Part shown: piece by piece, positions 15,332 to 52,418 of the stretch | Layout of the letters: the number at the start of each line of letters is the position of its first letter | How positions within the stretch are numbered: the stretch's first letter is position 1 | Assembly: GCA_002347045.1 (NCBI GenBank) | Contig: DDWV01000001.1 | Location: 487,201-551,200, forward strand | Reading direction: 5' to 3' | DNA length: 64,000 nucleotides | Source: Candidatus Collierbacteria bacterium UBA2277 | GTDB lineage: Bacteria > Patescibacteriota > Microgenomatia > UBA1400 > MFAQ01 | Program-made: the position numbers and the translations under genes | Notes under the pieces: generated by a model | Told to the model about the DNA's origin: nothing | The model's database searches: none | What the model saw: only the letters and a program-made list of their open reading frames with translations

Positions 15332-16087
15332 TTAATCGATTAATGTTCCCTCAACGACTAGTCGTCTAAGAGTCGTTCCCGGAGGAACACAGGTAACAAG
15401 CTTAAAGGTTTTGTTTGAGTAATTTTGCTTTAAGACCCACAGATCTGTTGGCTTAACTTCCACAGTGTTTGTGACTCGGTAGGTATATTCTTTGTCTTTG
15501 TACTTTACAAAAATATCTGAACCTGCTTTAAGTTTTGGAAGAGTGGAAAATATGGTGGTGTATTTTTTGGGGTCAAAGAACTGTGGAAGGGTTGAGTGAC
15601 CAAAGACGACTGGAGAACCATACTGACCCGGGAGGGCAGTCTGCGGATAATGTACTAAGTGTTTTGTGAGGTCTTCATCAAAAAGGCTAGTTACAACATT
15701 TTCTAAGCCAAGAGAGGGTATTGAGAGTGTGTAGGTGTCAGGAATATCTCCTTGGTCTTCTGATCGATCTACAGGGGAAGAAAAGGAATCGTTTTTTACA
15801 CTGCCAGGAAACCAACTACTGGCCTTTGTGTAGTCGACTCCAGACAAAATGAGAGGTTCTTGATCGTCGCTGGCTTTTGATTCGTAATAGACAGGGGATA
15901 GTAGGCCTGAGTCTCTGTTTAGAAACTGGACATCCTTAAACTGATAACTAACCACTGGGTAGGCGATAGCACCGAGAATTCCAAGACCAAGAGCAGAGAC
16001 TAGTGTAGGAACTGTTTTAAGATATATAGGAATACGCCTACCCGGGTGCGGATCTGAAGCCGTAGCCTTTTTGTAACTATAGAGCAT
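15332..16087 (-). CDS. Sortase-family transpeptidase (membrane anchored)
   Basis: 251 aa with an N-terminal TM segment, a VVFGHSTL active-site His region, and an LVTCVPPGTTLRRLVV motif carrying the catalytic TLxTC cysteine. Confidence 0.8.
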   Translation of the reverse strand: MLYSYKKATASDPHPGRRIPIYLKTVPTLVSALGLGILGAIAYPVVSYQFKDVQFLNRDSGLLSPVYYESKASDDQEPLILSGVDYTKASSWFPGSVKNDSFSSPVDRSEDQGDIPDTYTLSIPSLGLENVVTSLFDEDLTKHLVHYPQTALPGQYGSPVVFGHSTLPQFFDPKKYTTIFSTLPKLKAGSDIFVKYKDKEYTYRVTNTVEVKPTDLWVLKQNYSNKTFKLVTCVPPGTTLRRLVVEGTLID

Positions 16088-16088
16088 G

Positions 16089-18272
16089 TTAGTTTGCTAG
16101 CATCTCAAATTTTATTTTTGAGTATGGCAGAAGTTTTGTGAATAAAGGAATAGGAGGATAAATTTTGACGCTCAAATGATCAAACCCCTCAATTGTAGAG
16201 AAGATGGGGCGAATACTTGAAGATGGTTTCCCCTTGATGAAGCTTTTGTATTTTACTTCGTCAATCGTCGGAAAGAGACTGGTTTCGACATTTACTTTTG
16301 CTTGATAGTAGTTACCGGCGATAACTGGTTCTTCGAGGTTAATTGAGGTGTTGCCTTGAAAAATTTCAGACCCAGAAGGAATTTGAGAGGCTAGTTGTTC
16401 TGAGATCAGTTGGAATAAACTATCCTCTGAGTAAACAAGTGTTTCCAGAGAACCCTCGAGATCAAGATTGAGTATAGCTGCCTCTTCACCAACATCTTTG
16501 TCAAACACCTTTTTAGTGAATTTTAGATCTGAAAGTATTAATGATTTGAATCCAGGGTTCTGAGCATTAGTAGATGATTGGGTATCTGACTTGATTTTTT
16601 CACTAGCCAGCTGAAAAAGCTTGTCCTGATCTGCTTTGGAGACTGCCCTTACTGCGCGCGATGTCCCTCCTGAAAAGTCTGAGTCTGATACAGCATAGGC
16701 AACACTCATAGAGTAGTTGTCAACTGAAAAGGTGGAGTTTTTTGGAAGATTGTAGTCTGCTCCAATTTTAACTGCTTTTACCTTGACGCCGGTGGCCTTA
16801 CCATATGTTTCTGTGCCAGCGATGAGGTCAGCACTTTTGGAAGCAATAGTAACTTGGTCTGTGATGGTGTATGAGTATTTACCATTTTCCGATTCGATTA
16901 CGGCTCCTGCTTTAACGGAGATTGAGGAGGTTGATTTGTTGGCAATAGTAATCATACCGGTTGCGTGTTCTCCGACAGTAGCTTCCCCAGTTGTTTCTAT
17001 TTGTTCTCTAGCAACACCAGATATTGTTTTTTTGGTAGCTATCAGCGTGGGAGTGCCTGAGACAGGAATTTCTGAGATAGCAATATCAATTTGTGAGGTA
17101 ATTTTTTGTGGGTTGAAGTAGATGGTGACAATGGCCTCTCCTAAAAACAAATAACCGACAAACCCAAGAACAAAAATTAGCGGAATAATTAATAAATATA
17201 GGTACGGGTACTTAAGGTTAGAAAATTTTGGGAAAGATAGTTTTGGAATTTTTGGAAGTTTTGGAACAGAAAACGACATTTTTGGAGCTGGAGGAGAAAC
17301 TTTTTCTACGGGGATAGAGTCCTCTTCTTGAACAATGGCAAATTCAGGTGAGTCAGAAATCATCGGAGGAAGAGGCTCTGAGATACTTTTTTCGACAGAT
17401 AAGGGAGCTTCTGACTCTTCATAAGAAAAACCAAGCTCATTTATTGATGTAGGAGGTGATTGAGGAACATAAATGTTTGACTCTTCTTGGGGAGAGGAGA
17501 GGGTTTCTTCATTCCTGGTGCTAGTATTTTCACCTGATAGATACTGTACTGCTTCTGAACCGCCTGTAAGAGCAACAGCTTTGATACTAAACTCGATGGG
17601 TAAAACTTCAACCTTGGGCATGTTCTGAAAAGGAAGCCTTTCTTGCCAAGGATGTGAAGTAATTCGTTGCTCTTCTTCTTCTAAGGCTCCACCATTGGTA
17701 AGAATGAATCTTGCCGGAAGTTTTTCTTTTCCAATAACTGTGAGCCCCTCTTCAACGTCTTGGGCAATATCTCCTGATCTAGCTGCTTCTTCTGACGCAG
17801 AAACATCCCCTTTTTCAATTACCGAGACGACGACCTTGGTGTTGTAAATTTCCAATAGAATGGCTGTTGGAGGAATTCCCTCAAGCTTTTTCATGTAGTG
17901 AGCAATTGCAGAGTTTATGGGAACCATGCCGATCGGAGATAGTCCTAACTCTTTGATTAGGTTGCCTAATAGATGAATCTTTGTTGGGTGAATTTTTCCG
18001 TCTTCAATCCAAGAGTCCGGGAGACCAAAAATTACTTTTCTTGGTTCGGAGTCTATCATTTTGACGGCCTGTTCCAGTGAAGCGTCTACTCCGTTGATAA
18101 GTGATTCTTCATCGGCCCAAGATTCGTATGAACCATAGCTAATGACTGAAGGTTCTGTTCCGACTACCTCCCAGAGAGCAGTTTTTATCAAAGACTCATG
18201 AATTTCGATGGCAAGATAATACTCAGGCTCCGTAACTTTTGATTTATTTCCAAATAAATTTACTATGTTCAT
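16089..18272 (-). CDS. Large bitopic membrane protein: a PilM/FtsA-like actin-fold N-domain, one TM helix and a ~350-aa extracytoplasmic domain
   Basis: The 727 aa N-terminus YYLAIEIHESLIKTALWEV resembles the GIDIGS..IK.V.L start of PilM/FtsA ATPases. One hydrophobic helix (YLYLLIIPLIFVLGFVGYLFLG) sits near residue 355. The C-terminal half is Ser/Thr-rich with no recognised domain. Confidence 0.5.
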   Translation of the reverse strand: MNIVNLFGNKSKVTEPEYYLAIEIHESLIKTALWEVVGTEPSVISYGSYESWADEESLINGVDASLEQAVKMIDSEPRKVIFGLPDSWIEDGKIHPTKIHLLGNLIKELGLSPIGMVPINSAIAHYMKKLEGIPPTAILLEIYNTKVVVSVIEKGDVSASEEAARSGDIAQDVEEGLTVIGKEKLPARFILTNGGALEEEEQRITSHPWQERLPFQNMPKVEVLPIEFSIKAVALTGGSEAVQYLSGENTSTRNEETLSSPQEESNIYVPQSPPTSINELGFSYEESEAPLSVEKSISEPLPPMISDSPEFAIVQEEDSIPVEKVSPPAPKMSFSVPKLPKIPKLSFPKFSNLKYPYLYLLIIPLIFVLGFVGYLFLGEAIVTIYFNPQKITSQIDIAISEIPVSGTPTLIATKKTISGVAREQIETTGEATVGEHATGMITIANKSTSSISVKAGAVIESENGKYSYTITDQVTIASKSADLIAGTETYGKATGVKVKAVKIGADYNLPKNSTFSVDNYSMSVAYAVSDSDFSGGTSRAVRAVSKADQDKLFQLASEKIKSDTQSSTNAQNPGFKSLILSDLKFTKKVFDKDVGEEAAILNLDLEGSLETLVYSEDSLFQLISEQLASQIPSGSEIFQGNTSINLEEPVIAGNYYQAKVNVETSLFPTIDEVKYKSFIKGKPSSSIRPIFSTIEGFDHLSVKIYPPIPLFTKLLPYSKIKFEMLAN

Positions 18273-26537: not shown

Positions 26538-26565
26538 GAACTTATTATATACAAGTTTGACGTTG

Positions 26566-26591
26566 AAAAAAAACCGGGTCCTGAGACCCGG
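26566..26591 (-). terminator. Intrinsic terminator between the small membrane protein gene and the Lon-AAA gene
   Basis: On the plus strand: AAAAAAAA, then CCGGGTC-CTGA-GACCCGG (a 7-bp GC stem). On the minus strand the stem is followed by T8, ending about 28 nt upstream of the Lon-AAA ATG. Confidence 0.8.
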
Positions 26592-26601
26592 TGTTTGCAT
26601 A

Positions 26602-40772: not shown

Positions 40773-42419
40773 TTAACTAACATTAGGATCTTCGATGACT
40801 TCATCGGCGTCTCCCAAAACTTTACGCCAGTTGCCAAGCTTACCAAAAAGACTGGTAACGTCGGCAAATTGCTTAACCTTGAGAAGATAAGCTAGCCAGA
40901 AGTATACAGCAAGACCGATAAAACTTGCGGTCGCTGTAAGAATTAGAAGGGGAACTGTTCGGGTGGTATCAAAAACAAATTGATCAAGTAGACGCATTGG
41001 AATCCAGAGAGAAAATGCTGTAAGGATACTGACAAAAAATATTTTTAGCATTTCTCTTGTGATGCCTAGGTTGGGAAGACGAGAACGAATGACAAGATAT
41101 AGTACTAAAAAGTTTATGGTGTTTGATGCACTCATGGCAAGACTCATACCAAGGACGCCCCAGTCGAGTGTTTTGGTAAAGAAATATGAAGAAGCAACAA
41201 ATATAACAAGAGTGAAAAGATTAATAAGTAGGGGTGTTCTAGTGTCTTTTTTGGCATAAAAAGCACGAGTAAGGAGTTGAACGGCAGCTTGGGGAACAAT
41301 AGAGAAGGAGAAGATAGCGAGAGCTTTTCCAGTGAGCAAAGTTGCTTCCCAGGGGAAATTTCTGGCACCAAAGATGATACGAACAATGGGAACTCTTAGA
41401 ATTAGGATCAAAATCGCTGCCGGAAAACAAAAGAAGAACATCTGGAGAGTGGTTTTTCCGAGAGTAATGGCAAATTTTGTTTGATCTTTACTGTCGGCTT
41501 CCTCAGCTAAAGTGGGAAATGAAGCCTGTCCAAGTGAGACGCCAAAAAGAGATATAGGGAGGACGTACACTTGACGGGCAAAATTGAAGACTGTAAACGA
41601 CCCTGCTGATAGAGCTGAGGCAAGATTTAGAGAAACAATTCTCTCTACTTGAACTAAAGCAAGCGAAATAGTTCTTGGAGGCATTAGTTGAAGCATGTTG
41701 ATAACCCCTTTGTGCTTTGGACTGAAGCTAAATTTGGGACAAAAACCCGCTTGATAAGCTGATGGAAGCTGAATAATAACGTGAAGAAAAGCTCCAAAAA
41801 TTACACCAATGGCAGCGGCGTAGATGCCAAGAGATGGAGTAAGCAAGAGAATACCAAGAATTGTGCCGAGGTTGTAAAAAAGTGGCGCGATGGCAGGCAC
41901 TAAAAAACGACGGTGTGCTTGAAGCACCCCTGTAAGAAACGAGGAAAAAGTAAAGATAATCTGGGCGACAGACATAATTCTAATCAGATTGACCATAAGG
42001 TCGAGCTGTTCGCCAGAGTAGTGTGAGATAAGTTTGGACAGCGGACGGGCAAAGATGATAATTAAAGCCGTAAATAAAAATAGTATTAGCGAAACCGAGG
42101 TTAGTGCTACGTTGGCCATGCGATTGGCTTTTTTGGAGGACTTTTTTAGATACTCCTGATATATGGGAATGAAGGCGGCCGAGACGGCGCCAACTACAAG
42201 AAGCTGAAAAACGGTATCGGGAATAATGAAAGCAGAAAAATAAATGTCGAGATTCCCTTCGAGACCACCAAAAAATCTAGCGGCCAAAAGACGATTCCTG
42301 ATAAGCCCTAGAAGGGCAGATAACAGGAACGATGCAGCAATGATGGTAGCAGCCGAGAGAATACTTGAACTTTTACGATTTAAGATCTCTTGTGACTTTG
42401 TTATTAATTTTTGAACCAC
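40773..42419 (-). CDS. murJ: Lipid II flippase MurJ/MviN
   Basis: 548 aa, polytopic with about 14 TM helices, and a conserved MurJ N-terminal region (LLGLIRNRLLAARFFGGLEGNLDIYFSAFIIPD). Confidence 0.85.
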   Translation of the reverse strand: MVQKLITKSQEILNRKSSSILSAATIIAASFLLSALLGLIRNRLLAARFFGGLEGNLDIYFSAFIIPDTVFQLLVVGAVSAAFIPIYQEYLKKSSKKANRMANVALTSVSLILFLFTALIIIFARPLSKLISHYSGEQLDLMVNLIRIMSVAQIIFTFSSFLTGVLQAHRRFLVPAIAPLFYNLGTILGILLLTPSLGIYAAAIGVIFGAFLHVIIQLPSAYQAGFCPKFSFSPKHKGVINMLQLMPPRTISLALVQVERIVSLNLASALSAGSFTVFNFARQVYVLPISLFGVSLGQASFPTLAEEADSKDQTKFAITLGKTTLQMFFFCFPAAILILILRVPIVRIIFGARNFPWEATLLTGKALAIFSFSIVPQAAVQLLTRAFYAKKDTRTPLLINLFTLVIFVASSYFFTKTLDWGVLGMSLAMSASNTINFLVLYLVIRSRLPNLGITREMLKIFFVSILTAFSLWIPMRLLDQFVFDTTRTVPLLILTATASFIGLAVYFWLAYLLKVKQFADVTSLFGKLGNWRKVLGDADEVIEDPNVS

Positions 42420-42481
42420 TGAAGTGATTTTAATTCAAGAGAGTGACTTGCGCTAGGTGTAGCTCGTGGTAAAATTAGCGC

Positions 42482-42724
42482 ATGCCAATAACAAAGTCAG
42501 CAATAAAGAAACAAAGATCGGATAAAAAGAAGGCCGGTTTTAACAAATCAACAAAAACTAAAGCAAAAACCGCGATCGATGCTTTTAAGTTGTCACTCTC
42601 AAAAGAGAGCTTGATGAAAGCTTTTTCAATGGTAGATAAAGCTGCCAAAAAAGGTGTGATAAAAAAAGGTAAGGCAAACAGAATCAAATCTCGTTTGTCA
42701 AAAAAAGTTTCTTCCAAAGCGTAA
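42482..42724 (+). CDS. rpsT: 30S ribosomal protein S20
   Basis: 80 aa, basic and all-helical. MPITKSAIKKQRSDKKKAGFNKSTKTKAKTAIDAF matches the S20 N-terminus. Confidence 0.85.
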   Translation: MPITKSAIKKQRSDKKKAGFNKSTKTKAKTAIDAFKLSLSKESLMKAFSMVDKAAKKGVIKKGKANRIKSRLSKKVSSKA

Positions 42725-42746
42725 GTATTTTTGATACACTGAAAGT

Positions 42747-43292
42747 GTGGCTACTAAGCAAGGTGTTTCTAGTATAAATTTATTACCTAAAGATAGTTTT
42801 GAGTTCTCTACGACAGGGAAGCTTTTAAAGTGGATAACAACAGCGGGACGAGTTTTGGTAGTTTTAACTGAGTTTGTAGTTCTCTTGGCCTTTGGTTCAA
42901 GATTTTATTTTGATAAGAAGCTTGACGATCTTGGAGAGGTGATAGTTCAGAAACAAGCTCAGGTTATGACTTACTCCGAGATAGAGACAGATATTCGAAA
43001 GATTTTGGCAAAACAACGACAAGTTGAGATATACGAAAAATCTGGTTTGGGTTTCTCAGAAAAAATAAACAGTTTAACTAATATCCTACCGGCAGGAACT
43101 TCTCTGGACAGCTTTAATCTGAACAATGGATTGCTAGTAATAGAAGGAAAGGCTCAGTCGGAGTATGGATTTGCTCAGTTTTTAACCGGGATAAAAAAAA
43201 TGCCTGGAGTAGCAATGATAAACATGAAAGACACAAACTTTGATCAGACAACTGGTGGAGTGAAGTTTAATATTCAAATTAGCTATAAATAA
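42747..43292 (+). CDS. PilN-like type IV pilus assembly protein
   Basis: 181 aa with an N-terminal INLLPKD motif, the hallmark PilN INLLP, followed by a TM helix and a periplasmic domain. Confidence 0.6.
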   Translation: MATKQGVSSINLLPKDSFEFSTTGKLLKWITTAGRVLVVLTEFVVLLAFGSRFYFDKKLDDLGEVIVQKQAQVMTYSEIETDIRKILAKQRQVEIYEKSGLGFSEKINSLTNILPAGTSLDSFNLNNGLLVIEGKAQSEYGFAQFLTGIKKMPGVAMINMKDTNFDQTTGGVKFNIQISYK

Positions 43293-43954
43293 TGGCCAAC
43301 TTATTAAGCAACGAAAAATACGCGCTTTACTATCAGAAGATTGGACTTTTGTATAAAAAGCCTGAGATTCGAGCTTCTTTGGAGGTTATATTGTCGGTTT
43401 TTACCGTGATTGTACTAGTGTTTGCGGCTATCAGACCAACGCTAATAAATATTACGTCTTTGCAGAAAAAAATTACCGACCAGGAAGCAGTCAACAAAAA
43501 ATTGGATAATAAAATGGCCCAGCTGATAAATGCCCAGACACAGCTTGAGGTAAACAGGGATAGTCTATATCTATATGATAGTGCAGTACCGGATGGTTTT
43601 TCTTATGGAGATAGCGCAAAAAGAGTTGAGTATTTGGCAAGAAGAAATAATCTGCAAATTGAGTCTCTGACTTTTTCGGGGGTAACTTTGCAAGATGGTG
43701 GAAAGGTAAACGGAGACTGGCTATCTAAGATTAGCGTCCCTTCCACTGACAGCATAATTCAAAACAAAGTGACTTTTACGATAAAGGGAAACCCTGAAGG
43801 CACAATCAATTTTTTGAAACAAATTGAGTCTATGGATCAGCTGGCTATCCTGGGCAGTGCTTCGCTAACAAAGCAAGTTGGCCAGTCGAGACAAAACGAT
43901 TCTTTGAGAGCATCTGGAACACTGACCTTTTATTTTTACTCAACAAGACAATGA
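43292..43954 (+). CDS. PilO-like inner-membrane pilus assembly protein
   Basis: 220 aa with a short cytoplasmic N-terminus, a TM helix, a coiled coil (QKKITDQEAVNKKLDNKMAQLINAQTQLE) and a periplasmic domain. Its start codon overlaps the stop codon of pilN. Confidence 0.45.
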   Translation: MANLLSNEKYALYYQKIGLLYKKPEIRASLEVILSVFTVIVLVFAAIRPTLINITSLQKKITDQEAVNKKLDNKMAQLINAQTQLEVNRDSLYLYDSAVPDGFSYGDSAKRVEYLARRNNLQIESLTFSGVTLQDGGKVNGDWLSKISVPSTDSIIQNKVTFTIKGNPEGTINFLKQIESMDQLAILGSASLTKQVGQSRQNDSLRASGTLTFYFYSTRQ

Positions 43955-44265
43955 AACCACAAAGAACAATATCTTCTTATGTCTTGTTGGTAGGAATCAT
44001 GGGATTGTCTATAATGGGTGGAGTAGTGGCTTATCAGATTTATTCTGCGGCAGTAAAAAGTCAAGTAACCATGGAACAGAGTGCTGCGATTAAACCTATT
44101 GATGGACAGATAGATACTACTGTTATTGAGAGCCTTAGAAATAGGACTGTTATAAATGAGTCAGAGATGCAACAATTATTGACAGAGGTGCTAGAGTCGG
44201 AGCCAGTTGTGGCGACGGAGTCTAGTGCTGTTGAGGCTACAGCTTCAGCAACTATAGAGCCATAA
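43951..44265 (+). CDS. Small bitopic membrane protein with an acidic Ala/Thr-rich C-terminus
   Basis: 104 aa with an N-terminal TM helix. It is translationally coupled to both flanking genes through 4-nt and 1-nt overlaps. Confidence 0.35.
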   Translation: MKPQRTISSYVLLVGIMGLSIMGGVVAYQIYSAAVKSQVTMEQSAAIKPIDGQIDTTVIESLRNRTVINESEMQQLLTEVLESEPVVATESSAVEATASATIEP

Positions 44266-45608
44266 TGAAAAAACAAGGCCTAATGGCCAAGAAAATACCA
44301 ACGGTTTTTGGAATACTGATTCTTTTAGGCGGTCTTGTGGCTGGTGTGATTTTGGTAAACAACCGACAAGGGCTAATCACAAAAGCTGGGCCTACTGAGT
44401 CTCCTAAAAATGTAAAGATTTCTAATCTTGGATCGAACTCTTTTACCGTGAGCTGGACTACCGACACTCCCGTGACTGGTTACTTGAAGTACTCAGAAAA
44501 TCCAGCAAAAATTACCTCACCGGCAGGAGATATCCGTGACCAGATATCTGGAACATCCCAAGGATACACAAACCACTACATAACGGTGACGGGTTTGAGC
44601 CCTGAGAAGACGGTGTATTTTATGATTGGATCCGGATCCCAGATGTATGACGATAATGGAAACCCTTTTGAAGTACGGACAACTAATCAGGTAATAGCAC
44701 CTCCGGAAAATGTGATAACCGGAAAAATTGTTGGAGCAGACGGTACTCCAATAAACGGAGCGATAGTGTATGTAGAAGTTGAGGGCGGTAAAACACTGTC
44801 AGCAATGACGAATACTACTGGAGCTTGGAGACTAAACTTGGCTTCTTCGCGAGACAGTAAAGGGGCGGTGCTTACATATGACGCAAACACTTCACTTGTG
44901 TCCATCTTTGTGCAAGCAGGTATCTCTGGAACAGCAACAGCGGTAACAAATACTAGTAAAACTAAACCTGTGCCAGATATCACCTTGGGAAAAAATCAAA
45001 GTTTTGTAGATTCTACGATCACATCTGAGAGCGCATCTAGTGCCGTGGCTGCAGGAAAAAGCGGAAGTTTCGAAAGCATTGCTGAAGAAGCTGCTCCAGT
45101 AGGAGGTATTGCAGCTACTGAGTCTGGGTCTATGATTGTAATGAATCCTGCTATCAATGGCGAGATTATTGCTACTAGTACTCCTGAGTTTCGAGGTAAA
45201 ACCGCCCCTGGAATTACTATAAAGATCTCTGTTCACTCGCCGATTGAGCTTACACAAGTAATCAAATCGGATAAGAATGGGGACTGGACCTGGACGCCTC
45301 CACAAAAACTAGATCCTGGCTTGCACACGCTAACACTTGAGTTTACTGACGAGAATAACGTTTTCCAGAAAATTGTAAGGACATTTACTGTTTTGGCAGC
45401 TGAGGATACTTTGGGGATGCCTGCTTTTGTAGCTACTCCTTCGTCTGAGATAGCAACTCCATCCGCAATCCCGACTGAAAGCATGCCAGCAACGGTGTCG
45501 AGTGAGTTGGCCGATGCGGGTGGTTTTTCAACGACAATTCTCCTCGGAGTTGCAGGTATTATAATGCTGATATTTGGCAAGGTGTACAAAAACAAGTGGA
45601 AAGATTGA
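44265..45608 (+). CDS. Cell-surface protein with FN3-like and carboxypeptidase-regulatory-like beta-sandwich domains and a C-terminal sorting-signal-like anchor
   Basis: 447 aa with an N-terminal signal/TM segment, NSFTVSWTTDTPVTGYLKYS (FN3-like), and GKIVGADGTPINGAIVYVEV (CarbopepD_reg-like). The C-terminus reads LADAG, then a 19-residue hydrophobic stretch, then KVYKNKWKD. Confidence 0.55.
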   Translation: MKKQGLMAKKIPTVFGILILLGGLVAGVILVNNRQGLITKAGPTESPKNVKISNLGSNSFTVSWTTDTPVTGYLKYSENPAKITSPAGDIRDQISGTSQGYTNHYITVTGLSPEKTVYFMIGSGSQMYDDNGNPFEVRTTNQVIAPPENVITGKIVGADGTPINGAIVYVEVEGGKTLSAMTNTTGAWRLNLASSRDSKGAVLTYDANTSLVSIFVQAGISGTATAVTNTSKTKPVPDITLGKNQSFVDSTITSESASSAVAAGKSGSFESIAEEAAPVGGIAATESGSMIVMNPAINGEIIATSTPEFRGKTAPGITIKISVHSPIELTQVIKSDKNGDWTWTPPQKLDPGLHTLTLEFTDENNVFQKIVRTFTVLAAEDTLGMPAFVATPSSEIATPSAIPTESMPATVSSELADAGGFSTTILLGVAGIIMLIFGKVYKNKWKD

Positions 45609-45674
45609 CGAATGACAAAGAGTTCTTTATAGTGTACTTAAGTAATACTTTATTGGAACGAAAATATATATAGA

Positions 45675-47450
45675 ATGGACGACCAAAATCAAACCAATCA
45701 ATCGTTAGGTCAGAGTACTGTGCCAACAAATGATCCACAGTTTCCTCCAATAGAGTCAGTAGTCTTAAATCAACCCGAAGATATTACACCGTCGGCCACT
45801 CTGCCTCAAAATCCTGCGTTTCCAGAGATGGCGAGTACTGAGCCCGTCACCATGAATGAGTCTTTAGTAACTGAACCTGTGCCGTCTGGACAAGGAAGTG
45901 TTGATTCTATTTCTGAGATGACGCCAGGAACCACTGATGTTTCAACGCCATCTTTACAGACTCCTCCCGTGACAATGGAGTCAAGCGAACCTGCAGAGCC
46001 ACCAATGCCAGAGGCTAAGAAAAAAAGTAAGGTTTTTCCAATAATCGGTGGAGTTGCGGCACTGCTTCTTGTGGTAGGTGTGGCGGGTGCGGCTTACTAT
46101 GTATCAAATCAGCTTTCTACCAGACAAGCAGTGGCGCCTACGGCACCAGAGAGTGAGCCACAGGCGTATGTACTTGAAGGAGGTGGGTCGGGGCAAGTTA
46201 CCATCAAACCGCCGGCGGGAACAACAATTAACATCGTAAGACCGGTGGCTACTGACGATGATGAACCAGCGCCAAAAAAGACACCGACACCAACAAAAGC
46301 GCCAACTCCTAGAAATATACCTGAGGGTACGGGAACTGATGGTTTATACGTGGGAGTTACCTTCAATCCGGGTGATACTGTTTCAGTAGGTGGAACTGTT
46401 TATAAAAAAGATGCTCCTCTGAAAGTTAACGATAAAGGTGTGCTTGAATGTGCGGAAGAAGGATATTATTTATGTACCATTGCTGGAAGCAACGAGTGTT
46501 GCAAGATTGGGAGTCAAACAACTACTGCTGCGATTGGAGGAGATGGGGGAACTTCAGGGGGAAGTACCAGCACAAACTGCATAACTTGGAATGGTTATAT
46601 AGCCAATCCAACACAAGAACAGGAAAGGCAAGTAATATGTAATCCAAATAAAGATAAGTTTAATACGGTTACTTTTTCAGAAGCTTGCGTGGCAAGAGTT
46701 TACTACAACACAGATATTGCAGGCTCTGTAATAGCACTAACAAAAGACGGAGTGGCAACTCCCATGACAAGAATTGACGATAAAAAATGGGACGTAAATG
46801 TAACTCCCGGCACTTATACTATTACTGCTAAACTGGGAAATGAAGACAAAAATGCTATGGGATTTAGGGTACCTAATAGTTCTGGGATTTGTCAGATGTT
46901 TGGAGCTCCATATAATGTAAGTTCATTTTTGCAAGCTTCAACGTTGAAAGCTTTGGGGATAGACTCTGTCACTCAGGTAGATCGCCCTGTGCAGTGCTGG
47001 GGTGACATGATCAAGGGGGCAGACGGGAATACCCGAGGCGAGCTGAACTCTAATTATGACTTTAATGATTTTAGTGTTGTAATTGGTTGCAAGGACGCGG
47101 AGACATCTGTACCAGGTTACTGCGCATTGCTAAGAATCTATAAAAAAGTAAATGGTGTGTATAGTCCGACCCATATGACGACTGCTGATCTTCAAAATAT
47201 GGTGGTTGGGGATACGTACAGACTTACGGTGACAAACAACTTAGAGCTTCTCCCGACTCGTTTTAGAGTGACGATTTCTGGAGTAGTTGGTGGTTGGATG
47301 GATGGTACCTTTAACGCAACAAACAAAAAAATCGTAGAGTACAACGACTTGGTGATTACCTCTCCTGGAACGTATAAGTTTGAAGCTCAGGTTGTGCCAA
47401 TTCCAATGACTGGTGTGAATCAAAAGACAATTGAATATACTGGACAATAA
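45675..47450 (+). CDS. Type-II membrane protein with a disordered Pro/Thr/Glu-rich cytoplasmic N-tail and a Cys-rich extracytoplasmic domain
   Basis: 591 aa with a ~118-aa low-complexity N-tail, KKKSK plus a TM helix, a conserved QLSTRQAVAPTAPESEPQ motif, and about 14 Cys in the ectodomain. Confidence 0.5.
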   Translation: MDDQNQTNQSLGQSTVPTNDPQFPPIESVVLNQPEDITPSATLPQNPAFPEMASTEPVTMNESLVTEPVPSGQGSVDSISEMTPGTTDVSTPSLQTPPVTMESSEPAEPPMPEAKKKSKVFPIIGGVAALLLVVGVAGAAYYVSNQLSTRQAVAPTAPESEPQAYVLEGGGSGQVTIKPPAGTTINIVRPVATDDDEPAPKKTPTPTKAPTPRNIPEGTGTDGLYVGVTFNPGDTVSVGGTVYKKDAPLKVNDKGVLECAEEGYYLCTIAGSNECCKIGSQTTTAAIGGDGGTSGGSTSTNCITWNGYIANPTQEQERQVICNPNKDKFNTVTFSEACVARVYYNTDIAGSVIALTKDGVATPMTRIDDKKWDVNVTPGTYTITAKLGNEDKNAMGFRVPNSSGICQMFGAPYNVSSFLQASTLKALGIDSVTQVDRPVQCWGDMIKGADGNTRGELNSNYDFNDFSVVIGCKDAETSVPGYCALLRIYKKVNGVYSPTHMTTADLQNMVVGDTYRLTVTNNLELLPTRFRVTISGVVGGWMDGTFNATNKKIVEYNDLVITSPGTYKFEAQVVPIPMTGVNQKTIEYTGQ

Positions 47451-47460
47451 CTGAAATAAA

Positions 47461-48129
47461 ATGAAAAATAAAAATAAAAAAATACTCGCAATAATTTTAA
47501 TTTTAGTTATTTTAATATTAGGAGGAGCATCTATTTATATTGCAACACAGCTCTCGACAAGAGAGACTGTAGCTCCAACAGCTCCTGAAAGTAAACCAGC
47601 CGCCTCAGAACCAGATAGCCTTTGGGAAGGATCTGACGCTTGTGTGGTGGATGCCGTGGCTAAAGAGGGGTGTTCGTATAAATATTATTGTCTTACAGAT
47701 TCGTATACTTGTGTGGCCACGAATGGGCTGTATACAAAAACAACCCCTTATACATGGTGTGATGGACCGATCGCTCCACCTCCAACATGTGAAGAAAATT
47801 TGAAAACATACGATACAGGACCCAACACTGGAATGTGTTATGCAACACAAGATAGTTGTGATGCTGCCTGCATAAAACCAGTAATTACTAAAGCACCTAC
47901 CGAAGCCCCGACAGCGGCTCCGACTGCAGTTCCTACAATTATTGTAACTGTAGCACCAACGGCAGCCCCAACTGTGATCGTAACAGCAGCGACAGCAGTG
48001 CCAACGACAGTAGTAACAGTAGCCGCACCAACTGCTTTGCCTGAAGCAGGTATTTTTGATCTTCCAGGAATTGCTGCTTTTGCCGGAGGACTTATACTGG
48101 CTGTGGTTGGAATTCTACTAGCGCTGTAG
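47461..48129 (+). CDS. Small Cys-rich surface protein with an N-terminal TM anchor, a PT/VT-repeat linker and a C-terminal LPEAG-plus-hydrophobic tail
   Basis: 222 aa with an N-terminal TM helix, then QLSTRETVAPTAPESKPA, paralogous to the 45675 gene. It has 10 Cys in about 80 aa and an (A/V)PT repeat linker. The C-terminus is ALPEAGIFDLPGIAAFAGGLILAVVGILLAL. Confidence 0.5.
   Translation: MKNKNKKILAIILILVILILGGASIYIATQLSTRETVAPTAPESKPAASEPDSLWEGSDACVVDAVAKEGCSYKYYCLTDSYTCVATNGLYTKTTPYTWCDGPIAPPPTCEENLKTYDTGPNTGMCYATQDSCDAACIKPVITKAPTEAPTAAPTAVPTIIVTVAPTAAPTVIVTAATAVPTTVVTVAAPTALPEAGIFDLPGIAAFAGGLILAVVGILLAL
47890..48040 (+). repeat. Imperfect short tandem repeats encoding an Ala/Pro/Thr/Val-rich linker
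   Basis: Reiterated ccaac[gt]g..gc.gc / gtaac.gtagc units encode APTEAPTAAPTAVPTIIVTVAPTAAPTVIVTAATAVPTTVVTVAAPTA. Confidence 0.6.
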
Positions 48130-48131
48130 AC

Positions 48132-49382: not shown

Positions 49383-49389
49383 AATATCT

Positions 49390-51354
49390 ATGTTTTTTAC
49401 TGACCTATCAATTGTTTTTAGAACCTACTTGATAAGCTTAGTAATTCAACTGCTAACTTGGCCAGTAACTAAGAAAATTTTTGGAAAATTACCTGATGGA
49501 GGTTGGGCCTTGGGAAGAGTGTTTACAAGCTTGTTTGCGGCCGTGGTTATATGGCAGTTGAGCTATCTAGGTCTTTCTTCGAACAACAGTAGTAGCATAT
49601 TTGCTTTGATGACTGTTTTTGGACTAGCTGGACTTTGGCAACTGTATGTCGACGGAGTCAAAAAATATGCGGTTACTCGTTCTATGGCAAAGATTATTGC
49701 CATTGAAGAATATCTTTTTTTAATAGGACTCGGATTAACTGCAATTATTCGTGGACATGCTCCAGAGTTAAACTCACTGGAGAAGTTTATGGATTTTGGA
49801 TTTGTAAAACAGTACTTAGTGTCTCCTTCTCTTCCGGCGATGGATATGTGGCAAGCAGGAAAAAGTATCAACTATTACTCCTTTGGTCATTTTTGGACTA
49901 GCACTTTAATCCGTATCTGGGGAGTTGAGCCGAGTGTGGGATACAACTTGATGTTGGCTTTTATTTTTGGAACATCGATGAGTCTAGTATTTATTTTGTG
50001 CTATACACTGATGGGCAAAAAAAGCTCGCGAGCCTTAACTTTTGGGAGTTTGATAGGGTCAATGTCGGTAATGATAGCCGGAAACAGCCATACCATTTGG
50101 TATCTATTGAAAAACAAGGGCCTGCTAGACTACTGGTATGCAGACGCAACACGATTTATTGCTTTCACAATTCATGAGTTCCCAAGCTATAGTTTTGTGG
50201 TCTCTGATCTTCATGGCCATGTACTTGATTTACCGGTAGTTTTGTCTTTTTTGGTTCTTTTGGTCTTGTGGTTTAGTGAGAGAAAGAAAATTTATGAGGT
50301 ACTTATGGGAGTGTTGTTTGGAGTAATGATGATGACAAACACTTGGGATGTAGCAATTTTTGGATTGGTATTGGTAGTAATGGCGGTGTTAATGCTGTTT
50401 GAGAATCCCAGAGAGATTAAGGCCTTACTATCAATGGCCATGACAATGATAGTGACCGTGTTTTTGGTGACAATGCCATGGTGGTTGTCTTTCCATGCCA
50501 TATCAGATGGAATAGGACTTGTAAAAGAGAGGTCTCCTTTTTGGCAACTTCTTGTGTTGTGGAGCGGAGGAGTAGTAATAAGCGTTTTAGGTTTTGTGAT
50601 GGGAAAGGGTGAAAAAAATAAACTTTTGATTAGAACACTGGCACTTTGCTCAGTTTTCCTAATTGCGATACCTGAGTTTGTTTACGCGAGGGACATTTAC
50701 CCAGACTATCCAAGAGCCAATACTATGTTTAAGCTAACTTACCAGTCGTTTGTAATGATAGGCGTGTTAGCTGGATTTGCTTGGGGAAAGTTGCTGGATA
50801 AAGATAAAAAAATGTTTGTGGGGATGCGGATTTTAGGACTGTTTGTTTTGCTATATATATTTGTAGGGACGATGATTTTTCCGGTTAAAGCATTCCCCTC
50901 TTACTACAAATCATTTGCTAATTATAAAGGACTTAGTGGAGAAAAATGGATGGTAGATACAATGCCCGAATATTATCATGCAGCAAAATATCTAGACAAA
51001 AATCGAGACGGGAAGAATTTGGTAGAAGCTGTGGGAAACAGTTATACCCTATTTAACGCAGTGTCAGTGTTTTCCGGCGTACCGACAGTTCAAGGATGGA
51101 GAGTGCATGAGTGGTTGTGGCGAGGGGGGTACGACACAGTGCTTGAAAGACAAGATGATGTAATTGAAATATACCAAGGTCAAAGCGTAGAGAAGGCGCA
51201 AAAATTAATTAAGAAATATAATGTTGGCTGGATATTGGTTGGACAAAATGAGACTGTTTCTTACAAAATTAATGAGGAAAAGCTGTGGCAAATTGGTGAA
51301 AAAGTCTGGCAAGATGGCAATACTTATATAATAAAAGTAGAACTACCCTACTGA
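49390..51354 (+). CDS. DUF2298-like polytopic membrane protein (putative GT-C-fold glycosyltransferase)
   Basis: 654 aa with at least 12 TM helices in the N-terminal 500 aa and a soluble C-terminal domain. The architecture is typical of DUF2298 / ArnT-PMT-like proteins common in CPR and archaea. Confidence 0.5.
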   Translation: MFFTDLSIVFRTYLISLVIQLLTWPVTKKIFGKLPDGGWALGRVFTSLFAAVVIWQLSYLGLSSNNSSSIFALMTVFGLAGLWQLYVDGVKKYAVTRSMAKIIAIEEYLFLIGLGLTAIIRGHAPELNSLEKFMDFGFVKQYLVSPSLPAMDMWQAGKSINYYSFGHFWTSTLIRIWGVEPSVGYNLMLAFIFGTSMSLVFILCYTLMGKKSSRALTFGSLIGSMSVMIAGNSHTIWYLLKNKGLLDYWYADATRFIAFTIHEFPSYSFVVSDLHGHVLDLPVVLSFLVLLVLWFSERKKIYEVLMGVLFGVMMMTNTWDVAIFGLVLVVMAVLMLFENPREIKALLSMAMTMIVTVFLVTMPWWLSFHAISDGIGLVKERSPFWQLLVLWSGGVVISVLGFVMGKGEKNKLLIRTLALCSVFLIAIPEFVYARDIYPDYPRANTMFKLTYQSFVMIGVLAGFAWGKLLDKDKKMFVGMRILGLFVLLYIFVGTMIFPVKAFPSYYKSFANYKGLSGEKWMVDTMPEYYHAAKYLDKNRDGKNLVEAVGNSYTLFNAVSVFSGVPTVQGWRVHEWLWRGGYDTVLERQDDVIEIYQGQSVEKAQKLIKKYNVGWILVGQNETVSYKINEEKLWQIGEKVWQDGNTYIIKVELPY

Positions 51355-52418
51355 GAACCATTGAGACGGTTGCTCAAATACTTCTTTAAGGCGTCCCAAC
51401 TATTATCTTTGGGGATAAGCACCCACTCACCTTTATATTTATATGTGGGAGGATTGTATAGTATCGCAACCCCGTTTTCGTCTGGGAGAGTGGAAAGAGT
51501 GATTGATCTCATCTGACTGTTTTGAGTGTCTAGAGCTATTTTGGCCAGAGTTGGATATAGACTCTGACTAAGGTTGGTATCGAGATTTTTGTCCAAAATT
51601 GTAAAAAACTGGTCAAGCTTTTCTTTGTTGAGGAGAAAAGCTGGTGTAAGCATTTTTTGTTTTAGAGCCGAGATAATTTGTTGTTGTCTGCGGGACCTGG
51701 CAAAGTCAGTACCTTCATCTCCTATTGAGTGACGCGATCTAACAAACTTTAGGGCAGTGTCACCGTTCATGTGAGCTGACCCTGTAGCAAAAACAAGTGT
51801 TTCGTATCGGCTAGACACAGGTATAGCGTTTTCTTTGCCTGGAAGAGGAAAATTTGGATCGACAAATCCAGGATTAACGTCTATATCCACCCCTCCTATG
51901 AGGTCGATAGTTTCTTTAAAAATAGTGAAGTTTATGACTGCAGTGTAATGAATGGGAAGACCTAAGTCTTCTAAAATTGCACCTTGAGCCATTTTTATGC
52001 CACCCCCTGGGCTGGCCTTTTCTCCGTAGTGATAAGCAGTATTAATTTTGGCTTGGAGTGAAGGAACCCAAAGGTCTCGAGGAATACTTATCAAAGCTGG
52101 AGTTTTTGAGTTGTGATTGTAAGAAAGAACAATAACTGTGTCTGAAAGATTTGGAGAGTCTGTACCTTCGCCACGTATACCGAGTAATAAAAAGTTTGTG
52201 GTGCCACTAGTGTTGTCGAGATTCTCAACGGGAGTGCCAAAAAAACTAAGAAGGTCTTGAGGCTTTAAATTGAGGCCAGAGAGTATCTCGAGTCCCTTTG
52301 CACCTGCAATTCCTAATATACTGAGAAAAAACAAAACGAGAATGGCCACAAGATGAGTTTTTATGAATGCGGCAGTACGAATAAAAAGACGGCGTGGTCT
52401 GATGTGACTTATTTTCAT
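51348..52418 (-). CDS. LytR-CpsA-Psr (LCP) family cell-wall glycopolymer ligase
   Basis: 356 aa with an N-terminal TM helix and the LCP core motif NFLLLGIRGEG...DTVIVLSYN...ALISIPRDLWV. Its 3' end overlaps DUF2298 convergently by 7 nt. Confidence 0.8.
   Translation of the reverse strand: MKISHIRPRRLFIRTAAFIKTHLVAILVLFFLSILGIAGAKGLEILSGLNLKPQDLLSFFGTPVENLDNTSGTTNFLLLGIRGEGTDSPNLSDTVIVLSYNHNSKTPALISIPRDLWVPSLQAKINTAYHYGEKASPGGGIKMAQGAILEDLGLPIHYTAVINFTIFKETIDLIGGVDIDVNPGFVDPNFPLPGKENAIPVSSRYETLVFATGSAHMNGDTALKFVRSRHSIGDEGTDFARSRRQQQIISALKQKMLTPAFLLNKEKLDQFFTILDKNLDTNLSQSLYPTLAKIALDTQNSQMRSITLSTLPDENGVAILYNPPTYKYKGEWVLIPKDNSWDALKKYLSNRLNGSQ

What the first reader, a model, noticed from the sequence alone, without database searches (positions are those of the whole stretch)
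44265..45608. FN3/CarbopepD_reg-like surface protein ending in a tripartite sorting signal with a non-canonical LADAG motif; candidate substrate of the sortase at 15332
The C-terminus is ...SSELADAGG-FSTTILLGVAGIIMLIFG-KVYKNKWKD. That is a pentapeptide, then about 19 hydrophobic residues, then a positively charged tail, which is the architecture of a cell-wall sorting signal. The pentapeptide is LADAG instead of LPxTG or LAxTG. The only sortase in the window (15332-16087) has a TLxTC active site. The protein has an N-terminal signal or anchor and FN3-like and CarbopepD_reg-like beta-sandwich domains, as expected for an adhesin.
Basis: partly seen in the sequence, partly recalled or inferred. 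Interest (0 to 1): 0.55.

Follow-up and report, generated by a model that had tools for sequence, protein, structure and literature searches.

The report
Non-canonical sortase anchor signal, pilus-linked protein
A conserved surface protein of an uncultivated Microgenomates (CPR) bacterium, encoded directly behind type IV pilus genes pilN and pilO, ends in a degenerate but strongly conserved sortase-type wall-anchoring signal (L-x-D/E-T/A/S-G instead of LPxTG); this is an interesting variant of a known mechanism rather than a new one.

Summary
ORF 44265-45608(+) encodes a 447-aa protein with an N-terminal TM helix, three beta-sandwich domains, a disordered stalk, LADAG, a 19-aa hydrophobic segment and a basic tail. 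A Pfam sortase with an intact His/Cys/Arg triad lies at 15332-16087(-).

LADAG is one allele of a family-wide signature. All 120 orthologues (49-100% identity) carry MPxT-x-S-x-x-L-x-x-[T/A/S]-G, then a TM segment and a positive tail. L and G are invariant, and Pro at position 2 occurs once in 120. More distant orthologues have [LVT]P-x-x-G.

A second protein two genes downstream (47461-48129) ends in LPEAG. Its tag family has canonical LPETG as consensus and shows the same substitutions (LPEAG, LPESG, LTDAG, LAESG). Sortase and target sit about 29 kb apart on the same contig in another genome as well.

The sortase-substrate reading is therefore supported but not proven (about 0.6). The sortase fits no characterised class.

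Verdict: new variant of a known kind, moderate interest.

The parts
44265..45608 (+). Target gene: 447-aa bitopic/secreted beta-sandwich protein with a C-terminal sorting-signal-like end
   Evidence: ORF. 120 orthologues at 49-100% identity in Microgenomates. 47 genomic loci. AF2 model.
44295..44372 (+). N-terminal TM helix / signal-anchor (aa 11-36), followed by an invariant K-A-G-P...P-K stretch (possible signal peptidase site T-K-A|G, not tested)
   Evidence: AF2 helix 11-36. Invariant columns A41 G42 P43 P47 K48.
44406..44678 (+). Domain 1, FN3-like beta-sandwich (aa 48-138)
   Evidence: Pfam Pur_ac_phosph_N 32.2 bits and fn3 24.4 bits. AF2 strands. Foldseek hits to tandem FN3 proteins.
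44712..45002 (+). Domain 2, CarboxypepD_reg-like beta-sandwich (aa 150-246)
   Evidence: Pfam CarboxypepD_reg 27.8 bits, below GA. Confident AF2 beta-sandwich.
45135..45392 (+). Domain 3, bacterial Ig-like (Big_13) domain (aa 291-376)
   Evidence: Pfam Big_13 36 bits, above GA 27. AF2.
45414..45446 (+). G-[LM]-P-A-F-[TV]-A-T-P-S-[AS] stalk motif (aa 384-394), the most deeply conserved short motif of the family; function unknown
   Evidence: Near-invariant columns 386-393. Present in orthologues down to 32% identity. Lies in a predicted disordered region.
45483..45494 (+). MPAT motif (aa 407-410), 4 residues upstream of the pentapeptide; M and P invariant
45507..45521 (+). LADAG pentapeptide (aa 415-419), one allele of the family motif L-x-[DE]-[T/A/S]-G; proposed sortase cleavage between A418 and G419
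   Evidence: L in 117/120, G in 120/120, position 4 T49/A37/S34, position 2 Pro in 1/120. Column entropies.
45522..45578 (+). C-terminal hydrophobic segment (aa 420-438)
   Evidence: Sequence. AF2 helix 420-446. Mean uncharged stretch of 18 aa in the family.
45579..45605 (+). Positively charged tail KVYKNKWKD (family consensus [RK]xSKKWW[RK]D)
   Evidence: Net charge of +2 to +4 in 104/118 orthologues.
15332..16087 (-). Sortase (251 aa): conserved cytoplasmic N-peptide, TM aa 21-49, catalytic domain aa 118-249 with H164 (FGHST, nt 15590-15604), C233 (LVTCVPPG, nt 15377-15400) and R241/242 (nt 15362-15370)
   Evidence: Pfam 79 bits. Below all class cut-offs. Triad invariant in 120 orthologues. 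AF2 plus Foldseek. On the same contig as the target in JBAQNH010000002.1.
16089..18272 (-). p727, uncharacterised membrane protein always abutting the sortase gene (probable operon partner)
   Evidence: Spacing of -4 to +2 nt in 6 genomes. No Pfam, NCBIfam or PDB relative.
42747..43292 (+). pilN (type IV pilus alignment protein) with the N-terminal INLLP PilM-binding motif; first gene of the coupled run pilN-pilO-s104-target
   Evidence: Pfam PilN 29.6 bits, above GA 22.8. INLLP. 1-nt overlap with the next gene.
43292..43954 (+). pilO-like gene (by position and architecture; no significant Pfam hit)
   Evidence: Méheust 2019 lists PilN and PilO families in CPR (PMC6744442).
43951..44265 (+). 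s104, small N-terminally anchored protein; overlaps pilO by 4 nt and the target by 1 nt
   Evidence: Conserved at this position in most loci.
45675..47450 (+). p591, Cys-rich surface protein; paralogue family of the tag-bearing proteins, but without a tag in this genome
47461..48129 (+). p222, second candidate sortase substrate: ...PTA-LPEAG(nt 48037-48051)-IFDLPGIAAFAGGLILAVVGILLAL-COOH, no basic tail
   Evidence: The tag family has LPETG 26, LPEAG 10 and other variants among 47 representatives and is found in 40 proteins of the loci.
51348..52418 (-). LytR-CpsA-Psr (LCP) ligase, conserved flank of the cluster (context; possible glycosylation of the Thr/Pro-rich stalks)
   Evidence: Pfam 107.8 bits. 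Synteny. Precedent in PMC6381275.

Best explanation
The 447-aa protein is exported through its N-terminal signal or anchor and displays three beta-sandwich domains on a disordered Thr/Pro-rich stalk. It is held transiently in the membrane by its C-terminal hydrophobic segment and positive tail. The L-A-D-A-G pentapeptide, an allele of the clade-wide L-x-[D/E]-[T/A/S]-G, is then cleaved between position 4 and Gly by the genome's single, unclassified sortase (15332-16087). The protein is transferred to a lipid II / peptidoglycan amine, which leaves it covalently attached to the cell wall. This lineage's sortase would tolerate Thr, Ala or Ser at P1 and would not require Pro at P3. What is shown: the architecture, the conservation of the motif, parallel variants in an LPETG-consensus tag family, an intact sortase and its co-occurrence with the target. 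What is inferred: cleavage, the enzyme-substrate pairing, and wall attachment. Because the gene is translationally coupled to pilN-pilO-s104, the wall-anchored product most likely works at or with the type IV pilus / envelope machinery rather than as a free-standing adhesin. That last step is inference from synteny only.
For: (1) The tripartite C-terminus lies in a predicted disordered stalk directly before a TM helix.
(2) 120 of 120 orthologues keep L-x-x-[T/A/S]-G. L is present in 117/120 and G in 120/120; the acidic residue at position 3 (D 75, E 10) matches the LP[ED]TG preference; the flanking columns are variable.
(3) Many orthologues read LTDTG, LEDTG, LAETG or LAKTG, i.e. LxxTG / class-E-like LAxTG. 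Distant orthologues read LPDAG, LPQSG, VPVTG or TPETG.
(4) An independent tag family two genes downstream has canonical LPETG as consensus (26/47). It also shows LPEAG (10), LPESG, LTDAG, LTEAG, LKEAG, LVEAG and LAESG, the same substitutions as in the target family.
(5) 15 of 23 genomes mix T, A and S at position 4 among their candidate substrates.
(6) The motif is enriched against background: 3.6% of background windows versus 38/40 and 29/45 in the two families; the family-level binomial P is 0.003.
(7) The sortase hits Pfam at 79 bits, its H/C/R triad is invariant in 120 orthologues, and it has a canonical sortase barrel.
(10) Ala at P1 has precedent in two S. aureus LPxAG proteins (PMC3436756).
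(11) The envelope context fits: MurJ, an LCP ligase and two FemAB-family genes are in the window.
Against: There is no biochemical evidence. Pro at P3, which matters for substrate recognition by class A/B sortases, is absent in 119/120 orthologues, and position 2 is highly variable (2.2 bits). No NCBIfam LPXTG-anchor model hit was found at E<=0.1. Some distant orthologues have Val or Pro at position 4 (LPTVG, VPVVG, VPSPG), which would be odd P1 residues. The TM and tail carry invariant residues (G431, G438, K442, KKWW), more than a disposable signal needs. The sortase gene is not adjacent to the target in any genome. Additional sortases elsewhere in the genome cannot be excluded.
Confidence: 0.6

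Rival explanations
1. Permanent membrane anchor. The C-terminal helix is never cleaved, and the protein stays bitopic or tail-anchored next to PilN/PilO. The conserved MPxT...L-x-x-x-G is then a juxtamembrane docking or turn motif (for example for PilN/PilO/s104), and its resemblance to LPxTG is only partial.
For: The TM and tail have invariant residues (G431, G438, K442) and a conserved KKWW tail. Pro at position 2 is missing. Some distant orthologues have V or P at position 4, and some lack the basic tail. The gene is translationally coupled to the membrane-anchored PilN, PilO and s104. In another CPR pilus system, an FnIII protein (PamR) and chaperones with C-terminal TM helices are interpreted as permanent membrane anchors (bioRxiv 10.64898/2026.03.03.709456).
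Against: This does not explain why position 4 is restricted to T, A and S, why position 3 is acidic, and why G is invariant, just as in LP[ED]TG. It also does not explain why the neighbouring family, with the same T/A/S wobble, has canonical LPETG as consensus. A conserved, catalytically intact sortase with no other obvious substrates is present.
Confidence: 0.25
2. The signal is processed, but by another enzyme or for another fate: for example a rhomboid/rhombosortase-like or other intramembrane protease that releases the protein, or sortase-mediated polymerisation (class-C-like) into a fibre rather than wall anchoring.
For: The sortase's best NCBIfam and PDB sequence hits are class C (53 bits; 8t28 at E=5e-10), although far below cut-off. 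The tag family has an extremely conserved TM segment and no basic tail, like dedicated CTERM sorting tags. The window protein has Gly-Gly right before the TM.
Against: No rhomboid, exosortase or archaeosortase was found among the annotated genes of the window. GG is not conserved in the family; position 420 is A, G, T or S. There is no pilin motif or second sortase, and the sortase lies in a housekeeping context (MltG-RuvX-sortase-p727-AlaRS) in all six genomes examined. Foldseek does not favour class C over D, A or E.
Confidence: 0.1
3. Relic signal. The ancestral LPx[TS]G has decayed in the Collierbacteria-type clade, and the protein is no longer a sortase substrate.
For: Pro has been lost at position 2, and positions 2 and 4 vary.
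Against: A decaying motif would not keep L (117/120) and G (120/120) and restrict position 4 to three small residues across sequences that have diverged to 49% identity, while the adjacent linker columns are nearly random.
Confidence: 0.05

Closest known systems
Class E sortase substrates with LAxTG signals (Actinobacteria; e.g. Actinomyces oris SrtA anchoring the glycoprotein GspA after LCP-mediated glycosylation, PMC6381275)
   Same: A housekeeping-type single sortase. A sorting pentapeptide without Pro at P3; some orthologues here are literally LAETG or LAKTG. Thr/Pro-rich stalks. A conserved LCP gene next to the substrate genes, as lcpA is next to gspA.
   Different: The sortase scores 49.5 bits against the class E model, whose cut-off is 160. 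P3 here is not Ala-specific (T 59, E 24, S 10, A 9). P1 is T, A or S rather than fixed Thr. Glycosylation here is only conjecture.
Canonical LPXTG cell-wall sorting signal / class A sortase (S. aureus SrtA), including the two S. aureus LPxAG proteins (PMC3436756)
   Same: Tripartite signal: pentapeptide, hydrophobic segment and basic tail. Invariant Leu and Gly, acidic P2, and a precedent for Ala at P1. The neighbouring tag family has consensus LPETG.
   Different: Pro is absent at P3 in the target family. No TIGR01167-type hit. The sortase is only 21-22% identical to class A structures and has a ~115-aa N-terminal extension with a conserved cytoplasmic peptide.
Dedicated C-terminal sorting tags (PEP-CTERM/exosortase, PGF-CTERM/archaeosortase, GlyGly-CTERM/rhombosortase; Haft, bioRxiv 10.1101/2023.06.07.544157)
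   Same: A short conserved motif plus TM at the extreme C-terminus, attached to fast-diverging passengers. The tag family's TM is sequence-conserved and lacks a basic tail.
   Different: The motif is LPETG-like, not PEP, PGF or GG. No exosortase, archaeosortase or rhomboid gene is seen in the window. A sortase is present.
PamR / PamC / PamD of the CPR 'Pam' pilus (bioRxiv 10.64898/2026.03.03.709456)
   Same: CPR surface proteins built of FnIII/Ig-like domains with a C-terminal TM helix, associated with a pilus system in a monoderm envelope.
   Different: A different locus (pam operon near ATP synthase, versus pilN-pilO here) and a different lineage (Saccharimonadia-type versus Microgenomates). 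No sorting pentapeptide is reported there, and homology was not tested here.
PilP/PilQ position of the pilMNOPQ operon of diderm type IV pili
   Same: Gene order: a small anchored protein and then a larger envelope protein directly follow pilN-pilO, with translational coupling. CPR lack PilQ (PMC6744442).
   Different: No sequence or fold similarity to PilP or secretins. The analogy is positional only.

Membership tests
Sortase-dependent cell-wall sorting signal (CWSS, LPXTG type) | Pentapeptide L-P-x-T-G (or a class variant such as LAxTG, LPxTA, NPxTx) near the C-terminus | tested here: not met
   The window protein reads LADAG: L and G are kept, P is replaced by A, and T by A. The family reads L-x-[DE]-[T49/A37/S34]-G with Pro in 1/120. 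It meets LAxTG at position 2 but not at position 4 in this genome; a few orthologues are exact LAETG or LAKTG.
Sortase-dependent cell-wall sorting signal (CWSS, LPXTG type) | Hydrophobic segment of ~15-20 residues after the pentapeptide | tested here: met
   aa 420-438, GFSTTILLGVAGIIMLIFG. AF2 helix 420-446. Family mean of 18 aa.
Sortase-dependent cell-wall sorting signal (CWSS, LPXTG type) | Positively charged C-terminal tail | tested here: met
   KVYKNKWKD, net +3. 104/118 orthologues have a net charge of +2 to +4.
Sortase-dependent cell-wall sorting signal (CWSS, LPXTG type) | N-terminal Sec signal peptide | tested here: inconclusive
   An N-terminal basic region plus an 18-aa hydrophobic helix and a possible T-K-A|G site. 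No signal-peptide predictor was available, so it could be an uncleaved anchor.
Sortase-dependent cell-wall sorting signal (CWSS, LPXTG type) | Cognate sortase encoded in the same genome | tested here: met
   Sortase at 15332-16087 in the same window.
Sortase-dependent cell-wall sorting signal (CWSS, LPXTG type) | Cleavage after position 4 and amide linkage to peptidoglycan | not testable with these tools
   This needs proteomics of wall fractions or an in vitro assay.
Sortase-dependent cell-wall sorting signal (CWSS, LPXTG type) | Match to a curated anchor model (e.g. NCBIfam LPXTG anchor) | tested here: not met
   No sorting-signal model hit for the target or p222 at E<=0.1.
Sortase superfamily (enzyme at 15332-16087) | Pfam PF04203 / TIGR01076 above cut-off, and a His-Cys-Arg triad | tested here: met
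   PF04203 79.3 bits (GA 26.6). TIGR01076 56.8 bits (cut-off 39.35). H164, C233 and R242 are invariant in 53-120 orthologues. Sortase beta-barrel, TMt up to 0.8.
Sortase classes A-F (NCBIfam class models) | Score above the class-specific cut-off | tested here: not met
   Class C 53.2 bits, E 49.5, D 44.3, F 26.6, against cut-offs of 160-166. Foldseek E-values for D, C, A and E are within about 50-fold of each other (2e-10 to 1e-8).
GlyGly-CTERM / rhombosortase, PEP-CTERM / exosortase | Signature motif (GG or PEP) abutting the TM, and the cognate enzyme present | tested here: not met
   GG is not conserved; column 420 is A18/G17/T16/S13. No NCBIfam CTERM model hit. No rhomboid or exosortase among the window genes scanned. 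The rest of the genome was not examined.
Type IV pilus alignment subcomplex operon | PilN with the INLLP motif, followed by PilO | tested here: met
   Pfam PilN 29.6 bits, above GA 22.8. SSINLLPKD at the N-terminus. PilO is assigned by position and architecture only.
Type IV pilus alignment subcomplex operon | The target being a homologue of a known T4P component (PilP, PilQ, TsaP...) | tested here: not met
   Only generic FN3/Ig hits in Pfam and Foldseek. The association rests on conserved, overlapping gene order in 47 species.

The most novel reading that the evidence does not exclude
The target is a dedicated, sortase-anchored wall component of the Microgenomates type IV pilus machine: a monoderm stand-in for the missing PilP/PilQ-type envelope parts. 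It would be tethered to peptidoglycan through a relaxed-specificity sortase (P3 free, P1 = T/A/S) that itself works in a fixed complex with the uncharacterised membrane protein p727. The ultra-conserved disordered PAFTATPSA and MPxT peptides would be docking or modification sites within that machine.
Probability: 0.15. Interest if true: 0.75.

Novelty: new variant of a known kind. Interest (0 to 1): 0.45.

Why it matters
CPR/Patescibacteria may make up a large share of bacterial diversity, yet their envelope biology is almost entirely inferred. Sortases are known to be near-ubiquitous in Microgenomates (PMC6744442), but I found no description of their substrates or recognition motif in the searchable literature.

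This locus gives a concrete, testable motif: L-[P/x]-[D/E]-[T/A/S]-G. It also gives two substrate families and an unclassified sortase lineage that apparently tolerates Ala or Ser at P1 and does not need Pro at P3. That would interest both CPR cell biology and sortase-mediated ligation engineering.

The tight coupling of a putative wall-anchored protein to pilN-pilO suggests how a monoderm ultrasmall cell might connect its type IV pilus platform to the wall.

Tried and rejected
(1) Searching the 5.8-billion-protein index with the 45-aa tag alone gave 1 hit. The exhaustive phmmer then worked.

(2) Identifying p727: Pfam and NCBIfam on the whole protein and on its halves, and a 6-sequence profile against PDB sequences, gave nothing significant.

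(3) Foldseek of the full-length target returned only generic tandem FN3/Ig proteins at low TM-scores, so it gives no functional assignment.

(4) The promoter/terminator scan of 42300-48300 gave counts equal to the shuffles and is uninformative.

(5) Rejected: GlyGly-CTERM, because GG is not conserved. Rejected: the idea that MPxT is the true sortase site, because it is absent from the LPETG tag family and position 5 after it is S/T/D/E. MPxT remains unexplained.

(6) Rejected: relation to the Pam pilus operon, which is a different gene context.

(7) A proteome-wide motif scan of the source genome was not possible. Only 64 kb of the 647-kb contig and +-10-kb loci are readable, so I used 55 loci (about 0.95 Mb) from related genomes instead.
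Full report
**1. Observation**

The ORF at 44265-45608(+) is real. It encodes 447 aa and ends ...MPATVSSE-LADAG-GFSTTILLGVAGIIMLIFG-KVYKNKWKD.

Pfam hits:
- Pur_ac_phosph_N at 32.2 bits, above its gathering score, and fn3 at 24.4 bits, just below GA 25. Both cover aa 46-126.
- CarboxypepD_reg at 27.8 bits, below its gathering score of 32.3, at aa 151-193.
- Big_13 at 36 bits, above its gathering score, at aa 300-363.

An AlphaFold2 model built on 73 family sequences (mean pLDDT 75) shows:
- an N-terminal TM helix (aa 11-36);
- three beta-sandwich domains (aa 48-138, 150-246, 291-376);
- a disordered linker (aa 250-285);
- a disordered stalk (aa 377-419);
- a C-terminal TM helix (aa 420-446).

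Foldseek against the PDB returns only generic tandem FN3/Ig proteins: contactins, the SiiE and ice-binding adhesins, Bap, and S-layer SlaB.

The ORF at 15332-16087(-) is a sortase. It scores 79 bits against Pfam PF04203 and 56.8 bits against TIGR01076. Its active site reads KLVTC rather than strictly TLxTC.

**2. The motif is a family signature, not a one-off**

A search of 5.8 billion proteins found 179 relatives. The best 120, at 49-100% identity, are named Collierbacteria, Woesebacteria or Microgenomates wherever a name exists.

All 120 end with MPxT-x-S-x-x-L-x-x-[T/A/S]-G, then an uncharged stretch of about 18 aa, then a net-positive tail. For the pentapeptide:

| Position | Residues |
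|---|---|
| 1 | L 117, I 2, V 1 |
| 2 | T 59, E 24, S 10, A 9, others; Pro only once |
| 3 | D 75, S 15, E 10, others |
| 4 | T 49, A 37, S 34 |
| 5 | G 120 |

LADAG itself occurs four times. LTDSG, LTDTG, LEDAG and LTDAG are the commonest forms, and LAETG and LAKTG also occur.

Column entropies show selection. L415 has 0.29 bits and G419 has 0 bits, whereas neighbouring stalk columns have 2-3 bits. L..[TSA]G occurs in only 3.6% of arbitrary 26-residue windows in the same proteomes.

- MP[AE]T (aa 407-410), with M and P invariant.
- G-L-P-A-F-T-A-T-P-S-A (aa 384-394). This one persists even in orthologues at 32% identity.

**3. Independent support from a neighbouring family**

Within the window, a second protein (47461-48129, 222 aa) ends ...PTA-LPEAG-IFDLPGIAAFAGGLILAVVGILLAL.

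In 47 genomic loci from different Patescibacteria species, the genes downstream of the target carry this same tag...PT-x-LP[ED][T/A/S]G-I[LF]D-[FL]PG[VI]AAFGGGLLLA[VI][VI]GILLAL-COOH. These genes are a fast-diverging paralogous family of 222-751 aa that includes the window's untagged p591.

An exhaustive phmmer search of 1.84 billion cluster representatives with the 44-aa tag found about 54 proteins of 48-1059 aa, with the tag always at the extreme C-terminus. Their pentapeptides are LPETG 26, LPEAG 10, LPESG 2, LPATG 2 and LKEAG 2, with single cases of LTDAG, LTEAG, LVEAG, LPSAG, LPDSG and LAESG.

So a tag whose consensus is the textbook sortase motif shows, in this clade, the same substitutions that define the target family: A or S at position 4, and occasional loss of Pro. 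In 15 of 23 genomes, T, A and S coexist at position 4 among the candidate substrates. A single enzyme would therefore have to accept all three.

More distant target orthologues (32-46% identity) read LPDAG, LPQSG, VPVTG, VPESG or TPETG. Some read VPVVG, LPTVG or VPSPG, which fit a sortase less well.

**4. The sortase**

H164, C233 and R242 are invariant in the orthologues.

The enzyme lies far below every NCBIfam class cut-off: class C 53 bits, E 49.5, D 44, F 27, against cut-offs of about 160. Its AF2 model is about equally similar to class D, C, A and E structures, with Foldseek E-values of 2e-10 to 1e-8 and 21-30% identity.

The gene context is housekeeping: MltG/YceG - RuvX - sortase - p727 - AlaRS. 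This context is conserved in six genomes.

Sortase and target lie on the same contig about 29 kb apart, both here and in JBAQNH010000002.1. Five more sortase/target pairs share contig lengths. No sortase lies within 10 kb of the target in any genome.

The literature in the searchable library records CPR sortases only at annotation level, for example 'near ubiquitous in Microgenomates' (PMC6744442; also PMC7143001 and PMC4736985). It gives no substrate motif.

**5.

pilN, pilO-like, s104 and the target overlap by 1, 4 and 1 nt. pilN scores above the Pfam gathering score and has the canonical INLLP PilM-binding peptide.

The gene order MurJ(-) | S20 - PilN - PilO - s104 - target - p591-like - tagged protein(s) - FAD oxidoreductase - DUF2298 | LCP(-) is conserved in essentially all 47 species.

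The protein is thus a 1:1 orthologue embedded in a type IV pilus alignment-complex operon, not a variable adhesin. The variable proteins are its downstream neighbours.

The envelope theme is strong: MurJ, an LCP ligase, DUF2298/Chlor_Arch_YYY, and two FemAB-family genes at 55314-57154.

A documented precedent for an LCP gene next to a sortase-anchored protein is A. oris gspA-lcpA, where LcpA glycosylates GspA before the housekeeping sortase anchors it (PMC6381275). By analogy, the Thr/Pro stalks here may be glycosylated. This is conjecture.

**6. Mechanism and rivals**

Best explanation (about 0.6): Sec export, followed by retention through the C-terminal hydrophobic segment and basic tail. 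The sortase then cleaves between A418 and G419, and the protein is transferred to a peptidoglycan precursor amine. The wall-linked product would act with the PilN/PilO machinery.

- Shown: architecture, conservation, parallel variants in the tag family, an intact enzyme, and co-occurrence.
- Inferred: cleavage, the enzyme-substrate pairing, wall linkage, and any functional tie to the pilus.

Rivals:
- Permanent membrane anchor with a juxtamembrane docking motif (0.25). This is supported by invariant TM and tail residues and by the PamR precedent in another CPR pilus system (bioRxiv 10.64898/2026.03.03.709456).
- Another processing enzyme, or polymerisation rather than anchoring (0.10).
- A decayed relic signal (0.05). 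The invariance of L and G contradicts this.

**7. Comparison and novelty**

The signal works like an LPXTG/LAxTG cell-wall sorting signal, but the window protein fails the strict pentapeptide definition. The enzyme is a sortase but belongs to no defined class.

Ala at P1 has precedent in the S. aureus LPxAG proteins (PMC3436756). Loss of Pro at P3 has precedent in class E. The combination, with a free P3 and T/A/S at P1, in a CPR lineage and in a pilN-pilO operon, appears undescribed in the literature I could search.

I rate it a new variant of a known kind, with interest 0.45. The most novel reading not excluded is a sortase-anchored wall component of the CPR type IV pilus machine, with p727 as a sortase partner. 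I give that a probability of about 0.15 and an interest of 0.75 if true.

**8. Limits**

- Only two signal-bearing families could be sampled, both from one gene cluster.
- The remaining ~580 kb of the source contig (JGI 3300040971, Ga0242423_000004) could not be read, so sortase copy number and the full substrate set are unknown.
- No signal-peptide predictor was available.

Noticed in passing
window 16089-18272 (-) and 15332-16087 (-); L048, L050-L054: The sortase gene always abuts an uncharacterised 720-758-aa membrane protein, p727, with a spacing of -4 to +2 nt in six genomes. p727 has a cytoplasmic N-domain, a TM at about aa 355-378 and an outer C-domain, with only a weak sub-threshold Pfam hit (Baseplate_J, 19.4 bits, below GA 21.1) and no NCBIfam or PDB relative. 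The sortase also has an invariant cytoplasmic N-terminal peptide (Y-x-Y-x-K-A-T-x-x-x-P-x-P). This is reminiscent of how the PilN N-peptide docks PilM, so p727 may be a sortase partner.
   Followed up: partly
window 45414-45446 (aa 384-394 of the target): G-[LM]-P-A-F-[TV]-A-T-P-S-[AS] is almost invariant across the whole family, down to 32% identity, even though it lies in a stalk predicted to be disordered. It looks like a short linear motif for docking, processing or glycosylation. It is unexplained.
   Followed up: partly
window 47461-48129 (+); L001-L047 downstream genes; P0242-P0299: A fast-diverging, tandemly duplicated family of Cys- and Thr/Pro-rich surface proteins carries an extremely conserved C-terminal tag: LP[ED][TAS]G-ILD-FPGVAAFGGGLLLAVIGILLAL-COOH. 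The TM segment is sequence-conserved and there is no basic tail, which is atypical for sortase signals and more like dedicated CTERM sorting tags. No NCBIfam model matches it.
   Followed up: partly
window 55314-56333 (+) and 56294-57154 (+): Two tandem FemAB-family (peptidoglycan cross-bridge peptidyltransferase-like) genes; as called, the ORFs overlap by 40 nt. They could build the cross-bridge that serves as the sortase nucleophile.
   Followed up: no
window 48132-52418: A conserved trio flanks the tagged surface proteins in nearly all 47 species: an FAD amine-oxidase-like gene (PRK07233-type, 360 bits), DUF2298/Chlor_Arch_YYY (a large polytopic membrane protein, 398 bits) and a divergent LytR-CpsA-Psr ligase. 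This may be a glycosylation or wall-polymer module (compare A. oris gspA-lcpA).
   Followed up: no
window 26602-27045 (-): A 147-aa protein with N- and C-terminal hydrophobic segments and no sorting pentapeptide and no family hit. It sits immediately downstream of, and is probably co-transcribed with, an AAA/Lon-lid ATPase gene (25473-26600).
   Followed up: no
L001, L002, L007, L011, L038 and other loci (record titles): Several public MAG records that carry this clearly Patescibacteria-type locus are titled 'uncultured Pseudomonadales', 'Gammaproteobacteria', 'Spirochaetia bacterium' or 'Bathyarchaeia archaeon'. These are probably taxonomic mislabels or mis-binned contigs.
   Followed up: no
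window 42482-42724 (+): An 80-aa ORF between MurJ and pilN is ribosomal protein S20 (PF01649 in the contig's own gene calls), so pilN-pilO-s104-target may be co-transcribed with rpsT.
   Followed up: partly
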